64,000 bases of DNA from Escherichia coli (GTDB lineage: Bacteria > Pseudomonadota > Gammaproteobacteria > Enterobacterales > Enterobacteriaceae): the NCBI RefSeq assembly GCF_024223415.1, contig NZ_CP100503.1. One strand, written 5' to 3'. Shown in pieces: positions 55,747 to 64,000 of the stretch; the first letter of the stretch is position 1, and each line of letters opens with the position of its first letter. Position numbers and translations under genes: made by a program. The notes below the pieces were generated by a model. It was not told the DNA's origin and ran no database searches. It worked only from the letters and a program-made list of their open reading frames with translations.

Positions 55747-56631
55747 TTATGGATTACGCTTATGGATCTGGAAGCCGATTTTCCTGCCGTTTTTTATCTC
55801 TGAAAATTTAAGATATTCAATAGCTTCCAAATCTTTCATGGCTTTTCTGATAACGCTATTTTGCACGCTAACGGATGATTTGAGATTAAGCCTTGCTCTA
55901 AGGCGCTCAATGCTGACAGGTGCCGGGTTGGCGGGTAGAGCCTCAAAGAATGTATACAGTACCTTGGCCGTCTCTTTGCGCCCGAGCTTATCCAGCATCT
56001 TCAGCTTCAGGATTCGCTTATAGTCAACATAGTAAAGTTCAGATAGCTGTTTCTGCGGCTGGATCTCGATAACATCAAGCTCGGTATTCAGGCTGCTATA
56101 TGCCAACAAGTTGACGTTAATGTTATTGAGATGACCTTTTGCCGCCGGGAAGCGGAATTTGACAACTGTCTGCTGAATGCGTGTCAGAGAGTCATCAATA
56201 CTTTTACGGAACGCCTTTGAAAGGCGCTTACGTGGATAGCCGCATCGATCGGCAAACTCGGAGAATGGCAGGGTGATTATGCCGTCATCATCAGGTGCGT
56301 AGTCAAACAACGCGGAGGTTATGCCCACCCACACCTTAAAATCAGTATCCATATCCAGGCGTGGACCATGAATTTCAATTCCCTCATAGCCTTCCTGCTC
56401 AACAATTTTGAGGCTTGATAGTTCTTCGGTTGCGTTCGTTGTGTTTGTAGTAACTGACGATCCGCGACGTAGTGCCACATTGGTAGATTTTAAGGTTGGC
56501 ACAAACACACCTAAGCGCAACAAAGCGATGGGTTGTATAGTGCTATTGTTATTGGGTTTCAGGCTGTGGATTTCTCCTGTATTTCCTGCAACTTCTTCAA
56601 CGCTAAGGAAGCCTTTATTTTCTTCCGGCAT
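55747..56631 (-). CDS. repA: Plasmid replication initiator RepA
   Basis: Flanked by iteron arrays; start set at MPEENKG (294 aa), ORF track extends to a TTG at 56688. Confidence 0.75.
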   Translation of the reverse strand: MPEENKGFLSVEEVAGNTGEIHSLKPNNNSTIQPIALLRLGVFVPTLKSTNVALRRGSSVTTNTTNATEELSSLKIVEQEGYEGIEIHGPRLDMDTDFKVWVGITSALFDYAPDDDGIITLPFSEFADRCGYPRKRLSKAFRKSIDDSLTRIQQTVVKFRFPAAKGHLNNINVNLLAYSSLNTELDVIEIQPQKQLSELYYVDYKRILKLKMLDKLGRKETAKVLYTFFEALPANPAPVSIERLRARLNLKSSVSVQNSVIRKAMKDLEAIEYLKFSEIKNGRKIGFQIHKRNP

Positions 56632-56693
56632 CGTGGTTTCTCCATATGTGGCGCGGCCTGGCGTCATCTGGATTGCAGTTATCAACAACTGTG

Positions 56694-56811
56694 AATAGTC
56701 AGGCTCTAAAATCGCGTACAGTCAATGTTTCTGTCGCGTATAGTCAACAATAAATCGCGTGCAGTCAACAATAAATCGTGCACAGTCAACATAAAATCGC
56801 GTATAGTCAAT
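56694..56811 (-). repeat. oriR: oriR iteron array upstream of repA
   Basis: Five direct repeats of TCGCGTATAGTCAAC-like units at about 21-bp spacing. Confidence 0.7.
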
Positions 56812-59531: not shown

Positions 59532-60429
59532 GCACTGGAAAAACATTACTATTTATAAACTTTCTCGTGAGGCGGATCTGACCGACTTAGAAGATAAAAA
59601 GAAAATGATCCTTTTCACGCCATGCGGTAGTCAGGATATGGCCAAGTTCGGTTTTGTATCTCCATTTGGTGATAATTCCGAAGTTATCGCTATGCATGGA
59701 AATGGTTTTATCCTTGTTGAAGCAAAGCGCGAAACAAAAATTCTTCCCCCGCCGGTTATCCAGCGAGCTATTCAAGAAAAAATTGAAAAACTTGAGCAAG
59801 AACAAGCGCGTAAACTGAAGAAAACAGAGAAGGACTCCCTGAAAGACGAAGTTCTGCATTCTCTTCTGCCACGGGCTTTTTCAAAGTTTTCTGTTATCCA
59901 GGCGATCTACGACGGTTCAACTAAACGTATCTATATCAATGCCAGCACGCGGCAGGCAGAGGATATGCTCGCGCTTATGCGTAAGTCTCTGGGTTCTCTT
60001 CCTGTTGTTCCCCTGAGTGTTGAAAATCCCATTGAATTAACGCTGACCGACTGGGTACGTGATGGTAGTGCTCCACAGGGATTTCAAATGGGGGATGCGG
60101 CAGAACTTAAGGCAGTGCTTGAGGATGGCGGTATTGCCCGAGTGAAAAAGCAGGATTTGGGAAGCGATGAAATTTCCACACACCTGGAAGCTGGCAAGCT
60201 CGTCACTAAGTTGGCACTCGACTGGCAGAACCGCATTAAATTTACACTGGACCATAACTTCAGCCTTACCAGCGTCAAATTTGCGGATGAATTGCTTGAG
60301 CAGAACTCTGATATTGATAGTGAAGATGTAGCGCAGCGACTGGACGCAGATTTCTTCCTGTTGACCAGTGAAATTTCGTGCCTGGTTGATGCTCTGGTAA
60401 ATGCCCTTGGTGGAGAGGCTAAGCAGTGA
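59524..60429 (+). CDS. hrdC: RdgC-homologous recombination-associated protein
   Basis: Start at MFKHWKNIT; strong similarity to E. coli RdgC as I recall it ([11 protein letters not shown]..., [13 protein letters not shown]). Confidence 0.8.
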
Positions 60430-63128
60430 AAGAGCTGTGCTATGGATCTGTTTGCAGTGGAATTGAAGCCGCGAGTATTGCCTGGGAACCGTTGGGTATG
60501 CGTCCGGCGTGGTTTGCTGAAATCGAGCCTTTTCCATCAGCCGTTCTTGCGCACCGCTGGCCCCATGTCGCCAACCTTGGCGACATGACAAAACTTGCCA
60601 AAAAAGTCCTGGCTGGGGAAATCGAATCCCCTGATGTGCTGGTGGGAGGGACACCATGTTTTACCGCGGGCCATATGGTTCTTTGTAAAAATGGTTATAA
60701 ACCAATAGAAGATGTTTGCCCTGGCGATTACGTAGTCAGTCATCTCGGGCGGTTACAACAAGTAAAAAAAGTTGGTTCAAAAATAGCTAATACGGGGTTA
60801 CTTAATGCCGTTGGGCAGCCTTTAGGTATAAGAACAACCAACGACCATCCCTTCCTGGCGGTTCGGTGGAAAGCCCAAAACACCCGGAAAAATGGCACAT
60901 ATTTTAAGAGAGAGTTGTTGTCTGAACCGGAATGGCGAGCAGCATGTGATATGCCGGGATATCAATGGTGTGCTCTAACTAATTTCAATATTGCATCTCC
61001 AGATATTTGTTCTCGGTTCTTGTCTGAAGAACAGGCTATGTATCTTGCGGGCGCTTATGTTGGCGATGGATATATTAGGAGATGGAGAGGTAAATCTAAG
61101 AAGGCGGTTGTTTTTGGCATAAATTGCCAGAAATTGAGAAAGTTTCATTGCCGCATATCAGAAAACATATTTTCCGTGGCAAGCGAAATCCGAGGGAGCA
61201 TCAAAGTAACCTTGAATGATACGTGTTATGCCAATTGGCTTAATGAACATTTTGGCGAGTTAAGCCATGCTAAGCGTATCCCTGCATGGGTGATGTCGCA
61301 TCCATTGCGTCATGTGTTTTTACAAGGCTATCTTGATACTGATGGGACACCAAGTGGTAAAGCGGGATTTAGAATTAATAGTGTTAGTCCTGCGCTTGCT
61401 TGGGGCGTTGCGGAGTTGTCACAGACTTGTGGTTATGTTTCTTCGGTCAGCTTTATTGAAGTTGAGCCCAAAAAAGTGATTGAGGATCGCGTGGTAAATC
61501 AACGGAATTATTATCAGGTAACAATCTGCCCGCAGAAATTGTCACGTAAATCAAGATTGGCTCATGGAATGCTTTTACGAACAGTCAAAGAGTTTAAATC
61601 GGTAGGCCTAGATACTGTATACAACATAGAAGTCGAAGGTGATCATTCCTATATCCTCAATGGTGCGGTGGTCCATAACTGTCAGGCATTCAGTATCGCT
61701 GGATTACGTGGCGGGCTTGATGATGAGCGTGGCGCGCTAACTTTAAAGTATGTGGAGCTTGCAAATGCAATTGACGACAAACGGGCTGAGTCATTTCTCA
61801 AACCAGCCGTTATCGTCTGGGAAAATGTCCCAGGAGTCTTGTCATCGGCAGATAACGCCTTCGGATGTTTCCTTGCCGGATTGGCTGGAGAAGATGTGCC
61901 ATTTGAACCAGGTGATCGACCTGAATCAGGAAAAAGCAACGCGTTCTGGCGGTGGGATGGCAAAACCGGTTGCCATGTTCCAAAGTGGCCGCAGTGTGGT
62001 TGTATTTATGGACCGCAGCGAAAGGTGGCCTGGAGAATCCTTGATGCCCAATACTTCGGAGTGGCACAACGACGCCGACGCGTGTTTGTTGTCGCAAGTG
62101 CTCGAACAGACCTCGATCCCGCAACGGTACTTTTTGAGTTCGAAGGCGTGCGCCGGAATATTGCGCCGAGCCGAAAAAAGAAGGAAATCGCTTCCGCCAT
62201 TACTGCAAATGGCGCTGCAATCAGTGGCGAAAGCCTAAATCCATGCCTACACGCTGGCATGTCCCCCGGTATGAAATCGACGAAAGCCGTAAACGCTTTC
62301 AGGATGGCAGCATTTGGGGAATATATTGACGATGAAACCGCATCGACAGTAAAGGCAAGAGATTTTAAAGATGCCACTGACCTTGCCGTTTTTAGCAGCA
62401 CAGGAGCAGGTTTTTGGTCAGAAGGGCATGGTACATTGCGGGCACGTGAGCAAGAAAGCCATGAGCATCTTGTTACATTGGCTTTTCCTGAGCGTATGAG
62501 CGGTACACAACATGCTGCAACTAAGAATACTTCACCATCTCTAATGGCTAAAAATCCAACAGCTGTTTGCTATGAAGTAAGAAACGCAGAAGTAGCTGTC
62601 CGCCGTCTTACCCCTGTCGAATGTGAAAGGCTGCAAGGTTTTCCTGATGGGCATACGTTGATCCCGACGGAAAAGCGTAAAAAAGTTAATTCAGATGAAC
62701 TGGCATATCTTCGCAATCACTATCCAGATTTAAGCGAAGAAGAGGCCGCGATGCTTGCAGCTGACGGACCGCGTTACAAAGCGATCGGCAATAGTATGGC
62801 AATACCAGTAATGCGCTGGATTGGCGATCGGATTACTAAGGCCGTATGTCGGCAGAAAGAAGGAAGTGAAACAAAAGAGCGAAAAGTTAAACCAGCGGCA
62901 GAATTCGAACGGTCCATATTCAAATGGGCTGGTGGAAAATTTGGTGTTCTGGAACAAATCTTTCGCTATTTGCCAGAAGGGAAGCGCCTGATTGAACCTT
63001 TTGTCGGTGGCGGAGCTGTCTTCACGAATGCCGGATACCAGGAAAATCTGCTAAATGATGTGAATGCTGACCTGATTAACTTTTACCCAGTGCGCCGTAA
63101 AGCCCCGTCCTTCAGGTCGGGGATATAA
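60426..63128 (+). CDS. dmt: Bifunctional DNA methyltransferase Dmt (C5-cytosine MTase domain with intein, Dam-like domain), 3'-interrupted by IS
   Basis: Motif [14 protein letters not shown] split by intein; ENV, QRRRVF motifs; Dam-like FKWAGGKF...[10 protein letters not shown]...DLINFY; last 14 codons are IS-derived from 63087. Confidence 0.8.
60657..61679 (+). other. Intein (341 aa) with LAGLIDADG homing endonuclease domain
   Basis: Begins Cys (CFTAGH...), block [17 protein letters not shown] motifs [12 protein letters not shown] and [11 protein letters not shown], ends ...[21 protein letters not shown] followed by +1 Cys. Confidence 0.85.
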
Positions 63129-63143
63129 GGCGCGGTTTTCCAC

Positions 63144-63560
63144 CTAACCAGGTGTTTGCTGTTGTTCAATGTATTGGCGGATGATGGATATTGGTGCGCC
63201 ACCGCAGCTACTGGCAAAATAGCTGGGACTCCATAAAACGCCTTTGTAGTAATATCGGGCTGCAATATCTGGTCGATCTCGTCGCAATAATCTACTCGAT
63301 ACGCCCTTGAGACTGTTCACCAGGCTGGATATCGCCAATTTGGGGGGATAGTTAATTAGCAGGTGAACGTGATCTCGTTCTCCATCCATTTCAACCAGTT
63401 CAGCTTCAAAATCAGCACATACACTTGAAAAGTAAGTGCGTAGTTTTTCTATTGCGTCATGGTCAAAAATCTGACGTCGGTATTTTGCGACAAAGACCAG
63501 GTGAACGTGCATCAGGAAGACGCAGTGTCTTCCACGTCGGATATCAGTTTCTTTTTTCAT
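63144..63560 (-). CDS. tnpA: IS200-type Y1 transposase TnpA (intact ATG start)
   Basis: 139 aa from ATG at 63558-63560 (MKKETDIRRGRHCVFLMHVHLVF...); HuH motif DHVHLLI. Confidence 0.8.
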   Translation of the reverse strand: MKKETDIRRGRHCVFLMHVHLVFVAKYRRQIFDHDAIEKLRTYFSSVCADFEAELVEMDGERDHVHLLINYPPKLAISSLVNSLKGVSSRLLRRDRPDIAARYYYKGVLWSPSYFASSCGGAPISIIRQYIEQQQTPG

Positions 63561-64000
63561 GGACCAAAGTATAATTTGGCTTATGAAACGACTACAAGCT
63601 TTCAAATTCCAGTTAAGACCAAATGGACAGCAGGAGCGTGAAATGAGGCGCTTCGCGGGCGCATGTCGTTTCGTTTTCAATCGTGCTCTGGCGCTTCAGA
63701 ATGAGAATCATGAGGCCGGGAACAAATATATTTCTTATGCAAAGATGACTTCCTGGCTGGTTGAATGGAAAAATGCTACTGAAACGCAATGGCTTAAAGA
63801 TTCTCCCTCACAGCCATTGCAGCAGTCACTGAAAGACCTTGAGCGAGCCTACAAAAATTTCTTTCAGAAGCGTGCCTCTTTTCCCCGCTTCAAAAAGCGG
63901 GGACAGAATGATGCATTCCGCTATCCGCAGGGCGTTAAGCTCGACCAAGGGAACGGTCGTATTTTTCTGCCAAAACTTGGCTGGATGCACTACCGGAACA
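63559..64000 (+). CDS. tnpB: TnpB (5' part, continues beyond window)
   Basis: Same sequence as tnpB at 41279; divergent from tnpA with overlapping CATG starts. Confidence 0.8.
   Translation, partial: MDQSIIWLMKRLQAFKFQLRPNGQQEREMRRFAGACRFVFNRALALQNENHEAGNKYISYAKMTSWLVEWKNATETQWLKDSPSQPLQQSLKDLERAYKNFFQKRASFPRFKKRGQNDAFRYPQGVKLDQGNGRIFLPKLGWMHYRN

What the first reader, a model, noticed from the sequence alone, without database searches (positions are those of the whole stretch)
60657..61679. Full-length LAGLIDADG intein immediately before the catalytic cysteine of the dmt C5-methyltransferase domain
Motif IV of the C5-MTase ([12 protein letters not shown]) is split by a 341-aa insert. The insert has all intein hallmarks: N-terminal Cys, block B TTNDHPF, two LAGLIDADG motifs, and C-terminal ...VVHN, with the catalytic Cys of the PCQ motif as the +1 residue. 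Activity of the cytosine methyltransferase would therefore depend on protein splicing. I do not recall an intein reported at this site.
Basis: partly seen in the sequence, partly recalled or inferred. Interest (0 to 1): 0.7.

Follow-up and report, generated by a model that had tools for sequence, protein, structure and literature searches.

The report
Unannotated intein in P1-family Dmt methyltransferase
The P1-type phage-plasmid gene dmt here carries a complete self-splicing protein element (an intein with a homing endonuclease) inserted just before the catalytic cysteine of its cytosine-methyltransferase domain. It is a real, textbook-type element, common but unannotated in public sequences, so it is a tidy find rather than a new kind of biology.

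Summary
Window 60657-61679 is a 1023-nt, 341-codon in-frame insert in dmt, absent from reference P1 Dmt, lying between GGTP and CQAFSIAG (motif IV).

It carries every sequence hallmark of a class 1 intein: Cys1, block B T61/H64, block F Asp329, His340-Asn341 and Cys+1. It also has two LAGLIDADG motifs with Asp137, Asp229 and Lys206. An AlphaFold model (pLDDT 91.9) matches PI-SceI and other full-length inteins. Removing the insert in silico restores an unbroken C5-methyltransferase match. The +1 Cys aligns with the PCQ cysteine of M.HhaI.

It is not rare. About 26-27% of P1-like plasmids and viral contigs carry it, as do phage RCS47 and one laboratory P1 isolate, always named only "Dam family methyltransferase". 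At least 93 of the 150 best protein clusters related to it are C5-methyltransferases with an intein at the same site.

Population data suggest mobility by gene conversion and purifying selection on the splicing domain. Splicing and endonuclease activity are inferred, not shown.

The native proline at -1 usually blocks splicing in other inteins, which is the one unusual point.

In this window dmt is also truncated by an IS200/IS605 element in its Dam domain.

The parts
60426..60656 (+). N-extein: first 77 codons of dmt (C5-methyltransferase motif I SVCSGIE at 60447-60467; ends ...GGTP, Pro codon CCA at -1)
   Evidence: ORF list; alignment to P1, RCS47 and OP279344 Dmt; Pfam DNA_methylase residues 8-78; -1 codon comparison
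60657..61679 (+). Intein, 341 aa (Cys1 ... His340-Asn341), class 1 type with an embedded LAGLIDADG homing endonuclease
   Evidence: Translation; gap in P1 Dmt; Pfam and NCBIfam hits; AF2 model pLDDT 91.9; Foldseek top hits PI-SceI, TliVMA, PI-PfuI, PhoVMA, PI-PkoII
60657..61001 (+). N-terminal splicing (Hint) region, aa 1-115: block A Cys1 (60657-60659); block B TTNDHPF (60834-60854, T61 and H64)
   Evidence: Hint_2 match to ORF residues 77-126; C1, T61 and H64 invariant in the 11-sequence alignment A2; syn/nonsyn variants 10/5
61002..61526 (+). LAGLIDADG endonuclease domain, about aa 116-290: motif 1 [11 protein letters not shown] (61041-61073, Asp137); Lys206 (in 61269-61283); motif 2 [11 protein letters not shown] (61317-61349, Asp229)
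   Evidence: LAGLIDADG_3 hits; D137, K206 and D229 conserved in A2; helices 124-137 and 218-229 in the model; I-SceI and I-OnuI-type fold hits
61527..61679 (+). C-terminal splicing region, aa 291-341: block [15 protein letters not shown] (61617-61658, Asp329); block G NGAVVHN (61659-61679)
   Evidence: TIGR01443 intein_Cterm 30.8 bits against cut-off 15.6; match to the C-terminus of the Spl DnaX mini-intein; no variants among 32 copies
61680..61682 (+). +1 Cys (TGT): splicing nucleophile and, after splicing, the motif IV (PCQ) catalytic cysteine of the C5-methyltransferase
   Evidence: In-silico spliced protein aligns [12 protein letters not shown] to M.HhaI GFPCQAFSISG; dcm model becomes contiguous across the junction
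61680..63086 (+). C-extein: rest of the C5-methyltransferase (ENV 61818-61838, QRRRR 62064-62087, GNS 62781-62810) and the first ~55 residues of the Dam domain (FKWAGGK 62919-62939)
   Evidence: Pfam DNA_methylase and MethyltransfD12 hits; motif positions; homology to other dmt genes stops at 63086
63087..64000 (.). IS200/IS605-family element interrupting dmt after TTAC (63083-63086): tnpA 63144-63680 (-), and tnpB from 63643 (+) running off the window. Not part of the intein, but it truncates the host gene; the ORF ends at 63128 after 13 foreign codons
   Evidence: NCBIfam transpos_IS200 145.8 bits and TnpB 95.8 bits; sequence; BLAST breakpoints

Best explanation
The insert is a canonical class 1 intein carrying a LAGLIDADG homing endonuclease, sitting in the catalytic loop (motif IV, Pro|Cys-Gln) of the C5-cytosine methyltransferase domain of a P1-family Dmt protein. 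The following mechanism is inferred from established intein chemistry, not shown here. The precursor is translated as one chain. Cys1 makes a thioester at the Pro(-1)-Cys1 bond. The +1 Cys attacks it to form the branched intermediate. Asn341, helped by His340, cyclises to release the intein. An S-to-N shift then restores [12 protein letters not shown], and the same +1 Cys becomes the methyltransferase's catalytic nucleophile. The unspliced precursor should therefore lack C5-methyltransferase activity. The C-terminal Dam domain, where it is intact, would not depend on splicing. At the DNA level the endonuclease is expected to cut the empty allele (...GGNACNCCT|TGTCAGGCATTCAG...). Repair from an occupied allele would then copy in the intein together with a short flank tract. 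That would account for its patchy presence, in about a quarter of P1-like elements.
For: Shown by tools:
- Exact in-frame insert relative to P1 Dmt.
- Pfam Hint_2, LAGLIDADG_3 and Intein_splicing hits, and NCBIfam intein_Cterm above its cut-off.
- Invariant C1, T61, H64, N341 and C+1, with D329 conserved in at least 90%, plus endonuclease residues D137 and D229 (at least 90%) and invariant K206, across relatives down to 24% identity.
- High-confidence model (pLDDT 91.9, pTM 0.89) whose best PDB matches are all full-length LAGLIDADG inteins.
- In-silico splicing raises the dcm model from 99.9 bits (below the 100.65 cut-off, in 3 pieces) to 119.9 bits, with an unbroken match across the junction. 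It also aligns the +1 Cys with the PCQ cysteine of M.HhaI.
- Among 146 related cluster representatives, position 1 is Cys in 146, the last residue is Asn in 145, and +1 is Cys or Ser in 144. Proline is at -1 in 89 of them.
- All 32 complete P1-family copies are open. Syn/nonsyn variants are 10/5 in the N-splicing region, 0/0 in the C-splicing region and 7/15 in the endonuclease domain (Fisher p=0.05). This is the pattern expected if splicing is needed.

Evidence for mobility:
- 132 of about 496 PLSDB dmt records are occupied, and 29 occupied against 77 empty junctions were found in IMG/VR.
- The intein occurs on dmt genes of at least two lengths, 3042 and 3288 nt, which alignment A1 shows differ in the region after motif VIII.
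- Intein synonymous diversity is 0.018 against 0.12 in the N-extein.
- GC is 42-43% in the intein against 50-54% in the flanks.
- A 16-nt proximal tract, GGTGGGAGGGACACCA, accompanies the intein on two distal backgrounds, one of which also exists as an empty allele.
Against: - No experiment: neither splicing nor DNA cleavage has been shown.
- Proline at -1 has generally blocked or impaired splicing in tested inteins (PMC6486613).
- The essential Dam function of Dmt lies in a separate C-terminal domain. Selection for splicing therefore rests only on the C5 activity, whose role in P1 is itself poorly defined; the P1 annotation says 'perhaps at C5 cytosine'.
- The endonuclease domain shows relaxed constraint (nonsyn/syn per site about 0.6), so it may be decaying.
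- The patchy distribution could come from ordinary recombination between mosaic P1-like plasmids rather than from homing.
- The polymorphism counts are small.
Confidence: 0.85

Rival explanations
1. It is an intein by descent that no longer splices, or splices poorly, in this context. It would then persist as a tolerated insertion that inactivates only the C5-methyltransferase domain, while the Dam domain keeps the gene useful.
For: Proline at -1 is unfavourable in tested inteins (PMC6486613). The Dam domain is separate and C-terminal, and it is the function documented as necessary for P1 (PMC12707154). The C5 activity of P1 Dmt is annotated only as 'perhaps'.
Against: All splicing residues are intact in 32 of 32 copies. 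The C-splicing region has no variants and the N-splicing region shows mostly synonymous change. The same -1 Pro context is conserved in at least 80 divergent cluster representatives that have ENV downstream. Several relatives appear too short to carry a second domain, so a dead insert there would be lost or would decay.
Confidence: 0.1
2. Splicing works but the endonuclease is inactive. The intein would then be a vertically inherited passenger, spread among P1-like elements only by general homologous recombination.
For: The endonuclease domain has 15 nonsynonymous against 7 synonymous variants. P1-like plasmids are mosaic, with several dmt length classes. At least one distant relative has Asp to Asn in LAGLIDADG motif 2 (P0009).
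Against: Asp137, Asp229 and Lys206 are unchanged, and there are no stops or frameshifts in 32 copies. Intein diversity is about six-fold lower than that of the adjacent N-extein. A short proximal tract travels with the intein onto different backgrounds. No empty allele carries the intein-linked CCA codon, in 0 of 85 examined.
Confidence: 0.35
3. It is not an intein. It could instead be a bacterial intein-like (BIL) or Hint autoprocessing domain, an in-frame free-standing homing endonuclease, or a conserved non-intein Dmt domain.
For: One weak PDB sequence hit to a bacterial intein-like domain (2lwy, E=0.63).
Against: The insert is absent from about three quarters of otherwise near-identical dmt genes. 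The Hint halves flank the endonuclease. The terminal His-Asn plus Cys+1 and block B TxxH are all present. The best fold matches are true inteins at E=1e-18 to 1e-9.
Confidence: 0.02

Closest known systems
PI-SceI (Saccharomyces VMA1 intein) and the archaeal VMA/PI-PfuI/PI-PkoII inteins
   Same: Same two-part architecture, with a Hint splicing domain split by a two-motif LAGLIDADG endonuclease, and the same Cys1 / TxxH / His-Asn / Cys+1 chemistry. They are the best structural matches (E=2e-18 to 1.6e-9, TM about 0.55-0.63).
   Different: Only 10-17% sequence identity. The host protein differs (ATPase or polymerase rather than a DNA methyltransferase). This intein is shorter (341 aa against about 360-540). 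The -1 residue is Pro here.
Same-site inteins in other C5-cytosine methyltransferases (e.g. Mannheimia haemolytica P0011, Pseudonocardia P0021, Parvibaculum P0022, and many metagenomic clusters)
   Same: Homologous inteins (24-52% identity) inserted at the identical position, between the Pro (or SP-Glu/Asp/Ser) and the catalytic Cys of motif IV.
   Different: Different exteins and hosts. Several appear to be shorter, single-domain methyltransferases rather than the C5 + Dam fusion of P1. None was named as an intein in the source names shown, only 'Hint domain-containing protein' or 'DOD-type homing endonuclease'.
Actinobacteriophage and mycobacteriophage DNA-methylase inteins (Kelley et al. 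2016, PMC5050341; Gosselin et al. 2023, PMC9957025; bioRxiv 10.1101/2025.01.02.630785)
   Same: Inteins with LAGLIDADG endonucleases in phage DNA methyltransferases, patchily distributed and with evidence of transfer between alleles. The preprint lists C-5 methylases among the invaded proteins.
   Different: The described cases are mostly N6/N4 methylases. None concerns P1-like phages of enterobacteria, and the passages I retrieved by term search do not describe the motif IV Pro|Cys site.
Ssp DnaX mini-intein (proline-tolerant engineered intein, PMC6486613)
   Same: One of the few inteins reported to splice with Pro at -1. A DnaX mini-intein from a different organism (Spl DnaX, 7cfv) is the closest PDB sequence match to the C-terminal blocks here (E=0.0014).
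   Different: In that study the proline was introduced artificially. Here Pro(-1) is the native, conserved context. DnaX has no endonuclease in the mini form.

Membership tests
Class 1 intein | In-frame insertion in a conserved host protein that also exists without it | tested here: met
   341-aa gap in P1 Dmt against the window, RCS47 and OP279344. 361 uninterrupted against about 130 interrupted dmt genes in PLSDB, broken exactly at nt 231/232.
Class 1 intein | N-terminal nucleophile (Cys/Ser, block A) and block B TxxH | tested here: met
   Cys1, Thr61 and His64 are invariant in alignment A2. Positions given.
Class 1 intein | C-terminal His-Asn (block G), block F Asp, and a +1 Cys/Ser/Thr | tested here: met
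   Asp329, His340, Asn341 and Cys+1 present. TIGR01443 scores 30.8 bits against a cut-off of 15.6.
Class 1 intein | Hint fold | tested here: met
   AF2 model pLDDT 91.9. Foldseek hits to PI-SceI, TliVMA, PI-PfuI and mini-inteins. Pfam Hint_2 at 4.8e-6.
Class 1 intein | Autocatalytic excision with ligation of the exteins | not testable with these tools
   Supported only indirectly, by conservation of the splicing residues and the low nonsynonymous change in the splicing regions. The -1 Pro is a caveat (PMC6486613).
LAGLIDADG homing endonuclease (two-motif, intein-borne) | Two LAGLIDADG helices, each ending in a catalytic acidic residue | tested here: met
   [11 protein letters not shown] (Asp137) and [11 protein letters not shown] (Asp229). 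Model helices at 124-137 and 218-229. Pfam LAGLIDADG_3 at 6e-4.
LAGLIDADG homing endonuclease (two-motif, intein-borne) | Cleavage of the empty allele and copying of the element into it (homing) | tested here: inconclusive
   The population pattern is compatible with homing: patchy presence, low intein diversity, a shared proximal flank tract, and the CCA/CCT linkage.
C5-cytosine DNA methyltransferase (host protein) | Motifs I, IV (PC), VI (ENV), VIII (QxRxR) and X (GNS) in order | tested here: met
   All five found in the in-silico spliced protein. The dcm TIGR00675 model scores 119.9 bits against a cut-off of 100.65 after removing the insert, compared with 99.9 before. Aligns to M.HhaI and M.HaeIII.
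Bacterial intein-like (BIL) domain | Hint domain without an endonuclease, usually lacking a +1 nucleophile, in variable non-conserved proteins | tested here: not met
   An endonuclease is present, Cys+1 is present, and the host site is highly conserved.

The most novel reading that the evidence does not exclude
This family may be a naturally proline-tolerant class of inteins, evolved to splice with Pro at -1 and to hand its +1 cysteine over as the enzyme's catalytic nucleophile. In P1-type phages splicing might then act as a post-translational gate, for example redox- or time-dependent through the Cys1/Cys+1 pair. Such a gate would delay or condition cytosine methylation relative to the Dam activity of the same polypeptide.
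Probability: 0.12. Interest if true: 0.6.

Novelty: new member of a known kind. Interest (0 to 1): 0.35.

Why it matters
Four practical points follow.

- **Annotation.** A widespread allele of a well-known P1 gene is labelled only "Dam family methyltransferase". It occurs in about a quarter of P1-like phage-plasmids, including RCS47 and a laboratory P1 derivative. Its protein length (1013 or 1095 aa against 672 or 754 aa) is explained by an intein that no source name mentions.
- **Biochemistry.** The family offers many natural inteins whose native -1 residue is proline. That context defeats most inteins used in protein engineering, so a member that splices efficiently would be a useful tool.
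- **Mechanism.** The +1 nucleophile is also the methyltransferase's catalytic cysteine. This gives a clean case for studying how active-site insertion constrains both the intein and the enzyme.
- **Tractability.** P1 is genetically tractable, so homing and splicing could be tested directly.

None of this changes current understanding of inteins. It is a well-supported but ordinary example.

Tried and rejected
- **Literature.** Ten full-text searches combined "intein" with P1, P1-like, RCS47, cytosine methyltransferase, C5-methyltransferase, cytosine-5 and DNA methylase (one of them failed on a too-short term). None found a description of this intein. Hits for "C5-methyltransferase" came from papers that did not look relevant by title and abstract; I did not open them. 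Papers on a Bacillus phage and on Thermus phages mentioned inteins only in unrelated contexts. A DOI look-up for an extein-specificity paper was not held.
- **NCBIfam N-terminal model.** No NCBIfam N-terminal intein model appeared among the hits at E up to 1. The N-terminal Hint region is supported instead by Pfam Hint_2 and by the fold.
- **PDB by sequence.** This gave only weak hits (best E=0.0014), so a structure prediction was needed.
- **Two apparent exceptions to the CCA/CCT rule.** Two IMG/VR loci (L101, L102) seemed to carry the intein on a CCT background. They turned out to be a Pasteurellaceae-type gene whose intein is broken after 17 residues, not P1-family alleles. I therefore dropped them as evidence of a fresh homing event.
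- **Source record.** I looked for a record containing the dmt::IS junction. No record in PLSDB or in the RefSeq complete E. coli genomes covers at least 80% of a query spanning the junction.
- **Rejected readings.** BIL domain, free-standing endonuclease and conserved Dmt domain were considered and rejected (see rival explanations).
Full report
**1. Observation**

The window carries a 900-codon ORF at 60426-63128 (+). Its product matches Pfam DNA_methylase (C-5) in three separate pieces and MethyltransfD12 (Dam) at the C-terminus. Megablast places it in dmt of P1-type phages at 96-99% identity.

I aligned it with reference P1 Dmt (AF234172, 754 aa), RCS47 Dmt (1095 aa) and the Dmt of a laboratory P1 isolate (OP279344, 1013 aa). 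Residues 78-418 of the window protein are a clean 341-residue insertion that P1 lacks and the other two share. It lies between ...VLVGGTP and CQAFSIAG.

**2. What the insert is**

Family models:
- Pfam gives Hint_2 (4.8e-6) at the start, LAGLIDADG_3 (6e-4, plus a second weak hit) in the middle, and Intein_splicing across the whole.
- NCBIfam intein_Cterm scores 30.8 bits against a curated cut-off of 15.6. Weaker hits are all to the intein portions of intein-containing RNR, GyrA, RFC, RtcB and DnaB models.
- PHROGs matches the intein part of a phage anaerobic RNR family at 1e-13.

Alignment with ten relatives at 24-52% identity shows these conserved positions:
- Splicing: Cys1, Thr61 and His64 (block B), Asn341 and Cys+1 invariant, with Asp329 (block F) in at least 90%. 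The window sequence also has His340.
- Endonuclease: Gly132 and Gly138 (motif 1), Lys206 and Gly230 (motif 2) invariant, with Asp137 and Asp229 in at least 90%.

An AlphaFold2 model built from that alignment is confident (mean pLDDT 91.9, pTM 0.89). Its best PDB matches are exclusively full-length LAGLIDADG inteins: PI-SceI at 2e-18, then TliVMA, PI-PfuI, PhoVMA and PI-PkoII. Free-standing LAGLIDADG enzymes and mini-inteins match the respective halves.

**3. The host site**

I deleted the insert in silico. The result has motifs I (SVCSGIE), IV (GGTPC), VI (ENV), VIII (QRRRR) and X (GNS) in order. The NCBIfam dcm score rises from 99.9 bits (just under the 100.65 cut-off, three stretches) to 119.9 bits, with one stretch running through the junction.

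The spliced sequence aligns [12 protein letters not shown] to GFPCQAFSISG of M.HhaI. From established knowledge of M.HhaI, the cysteine of that PCQ motif (Cys81) is the nucleophile that attacks cytosine C6. So the intein's +1 residue is the enzyme's catalytic cysteine.

A 341-residue domain between Pro and that Cys must disable the catalytic loop until it is removed. This last step is inference.

**4. Distribution**

- In PLSDB, the intein DNA occurs at 95% identity or more in 132 plasmid records: Escherichia (117 records, including E. coli, E. albertii and E. fergusonii), Salmonella (14) and Shigella (1). Of these, 128 are non-mobilizable. Wherever a feature is annotated under the match, it is "Dam family site-specific DNA-(adenine-N6)-methyltransferase".
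- The uninterrupted 5' end of P1 dmt finds 496 records. 361 are continuous, and the rest of the sampled hits break exactly at nt 231/232.
- In IMG/VR, an empty-junction pattern finds 77 contigs and an occupied-junction pattern finds 29.
- Occupancy is therefore about 26-27% in both collections.
- The exact RCS47 and OP279344 proteins are in public collections under methyltransferase names only. The 1013-aa form is seen on 315 contigs.

**5. Relatives elsewhere**

A word-indexed search found same-site inteins in C5-methyltransferases from a record named Mannheimia haemolytica (47%), a Pseudonocardia MAG (29%), Parvibaculum (29%) and metagenomes.

A profile search of 1.84 billion cluster representatives returned 4,730 hits at E of 1e-30 or better, which includes inteins in general. 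Among the best 150:
- 80 have xP|C followed by ENV downstream.
- 13 have SP(E/D/S)|C followed by ENV. Together these make at least 93 C5-methyltransferase clusters invaded at motif IV.
- Three further clusters carry a related intein at motif VI (WENV|C...HN|CGAFSS).

Across the 146 representatives with full-length matches:
- Position 1 is Cys in all of them.
- The last residue is Asn in 145.
- The penultimate residue is His in 129.
- The +1 residue is Cys or Ser in 144.
- The -1 residue is Pro in 89.

**6. Evidence bearing on function**

*(a) Integrity.* All 32 complete P1-family copies examined are open reading frames. They comprise the window, 8 GenBank or PLSDB loci and 23 IMG/VR loci, and give 19 nucleotide haplotypes.

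*(b) Selection.* Variants split by region as follows:

| Region | Synonymous | Nonsynonymous |
|---|---|---|
| N-splicing | 10 | 5 |
| C-splicing | 0 | 0 |
| Endonuclease | 7 | 15 |

The per-site nonsyn/syn ratio is about 0.15 for the N-splicing region and about 0.6 for the endonuclease domain. Fisher's test on the N-splicing and endonuclease rows gives p=0.05. This fits continuous selection for splicing and weaker, episodic selection on the endonuclease. The counts are small.

*(c) Age and origin.* Pairwise synonymous diversity is 0.018 in the intein against 0.12 in the adjacent N-extein. GC falls to 42-43% inside the intein from 50-54% outside. Both suggest a younger, imported element.

*(d) Flanks.*
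- Every P1-family occupied allele examined has CCA as the -1 proline codon: 27 IMG/VR loci plus 10 others.
- Every empty allele has CCT: 77 IMG/VR loci plus 8 others.
- The last 16-25 nt upstream of the intein come in two versions that occur only with the intein.
- One version, GGTGGGAGGGACACCA, sits on two different distal backgrounds. One of those backgrounds also exists as an empty allele with the ordinary proximal sequence.
- The intein is found on dmt genes of two lengths, 3042 and 3288 nt. Alignment A1 shows these differ in the region after motif VIII. I take that region to be the target-recognition region by analogy with other C5-methyltransferases.

These are the marks expected of gene conversion with short co-conversion tracts. 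Ordinary recombination between mosaic P1-like plasmids could produce much of the same picture.

**7.

The -1 residue is proline. Tested natural and engineered inteins generally fail or splice poorly with Pro at -1. Engineered Ssp DnaX inteins are a reported exception (PMC6486613).

Pro(-1) is the conserved native context in dozens of divergent members that keep all their splicing residues. I therefore judge that this family does splice, but that remains to be shown. If it does, it is a natural source of proline-tolerant inteins.

**8. State of the gene in this window**

Homology to other dmt genes stops at nt 63086. From 63087 there is an IS200/IS605-family element:
- tnpA at 63144-63680 on the minus strand (transpos_IS200, 145.8 bits).
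- A divergent tnpB starting at 63643 and running off the window.
- The insertion follows TTAC at 63083-63086. TTAC is a known IS200/IS605-type target; this rests on my own knowledge of IS608.

The ORF therefore ends after Dmt codon 887 plus 13 foreign codons, so the Dam domain is truncated. The C5 domain and the intein are intact. No record in PLSDB or in the RefSeq complete E. coli genomes covers at least 80% of a query spanning this junction.

**9. Comparison with what is known, and novelty**

By every sequence and structure criterion this is a member of the class 1 inteins with a LAGLIDADG endonuclease. The catalytic tests cannot be run here.

Inteins in phage DNA methylases are published:
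- N6/N4 types in mycobacteriophages (PMC5050341).
- An actinophage methylase family (PMC9957025).
- C-5 methylases, listed in a 2025 preprint.

I found no paper describing the P1-family Dmt intein or the motif IV Pro|Cys site. The search covers only open-access text and cannot see InBase or REBASE.

It is therefore a new, unannotated member of a known kind, in a well-studied phage family. Interest is modest. The main hooks are the native Pro(-1), the dual-use cysteine, and the experimental tractability of P1.

Noticed in passing
window 63087-64000 (target TTAC at 63083-63086): An IS200/IS605-family element (tnpA 63144-63680 minus strand; divergent tnpB from 63643, running off the window) interrupts dmt in its Dam domain at codon 887. 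No record in PLSDB or in the RefSeq complete E. coli genomes covers at least 80% of a query spanning this junction.
   Followed up: partly
L003 (OP279344.1, 'P1 del res del mod'), locus 3001-6042: A laboratory P1 derivative carries the intein and a shorter, different region after motif VIII (Dmt 1013 aa). The reference P1 c1-100 mod749::IS5 has neither. So 'P1' stocks differ at dmt. The exact 1013-aa protein is seen on 315 public contigs.
   Followed up: partly
L011-L017 and L004-L009 (PLSDB dmt loci): dmt comes in several length classes: 2019, 2265 and 2589 nt without the intein, and 3042 and 3288 nt with it. This points to swapping of the variable (presumed target-recognition) region. The 2589-nt form (L014, CP026938) has an extra ~108 codons that I did not examine.
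   Followed up: no
P0037, P0085, P0110 (proteins): A related intein occupies a second site in C5-methyltransferases, right after motif VI (WENV|CF...HN|CGAFSS). C5-methyltransferases are therefore invaded at two or more catalytic motifs.
   Followed up: no
L010 (E. fergusonii CP099329) 2501-3001; L101 and L102 (IMG/VR): Degraded copies exist. In L010 the intein matches only for its first 501 nt, and tail-fibre genes are annotated further downstream. L101 and L102 carry a Pasteurellaceae-type C5-methyltransferase whose intein reading frame breaks after 17 residues.
   Followed up: partly
window 60654-60656 and the corresponding position in 120+ loci: The -1 proline codon is CCA in every P1-family intein-bearing allele examined and CCT in every empty allele. 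No empty allele with CCA was seen, so there is no sign of precise intein loss.
   Followed up: yes
L002 (AF234172) locus ~3220: Reference P1 Dmt reads VWGTPCQ where the other alleles in alignment A1 and the junction comparison read VGGTPCQ. The change is a single base (TGG for GGG), just before motif IV. It might affect the C5 activity of the reference strain.
   Followed up: no
window 56725-56800: An ORF translation with the repeating peptide IVNNKSRAVNNKSCTVNIKSRIVN suggests short tandem DNA repeats next to a gene at 55747-56688 on the minus strand. These may be replicon iterons of the P1-like plasmid.
   Followed up: no
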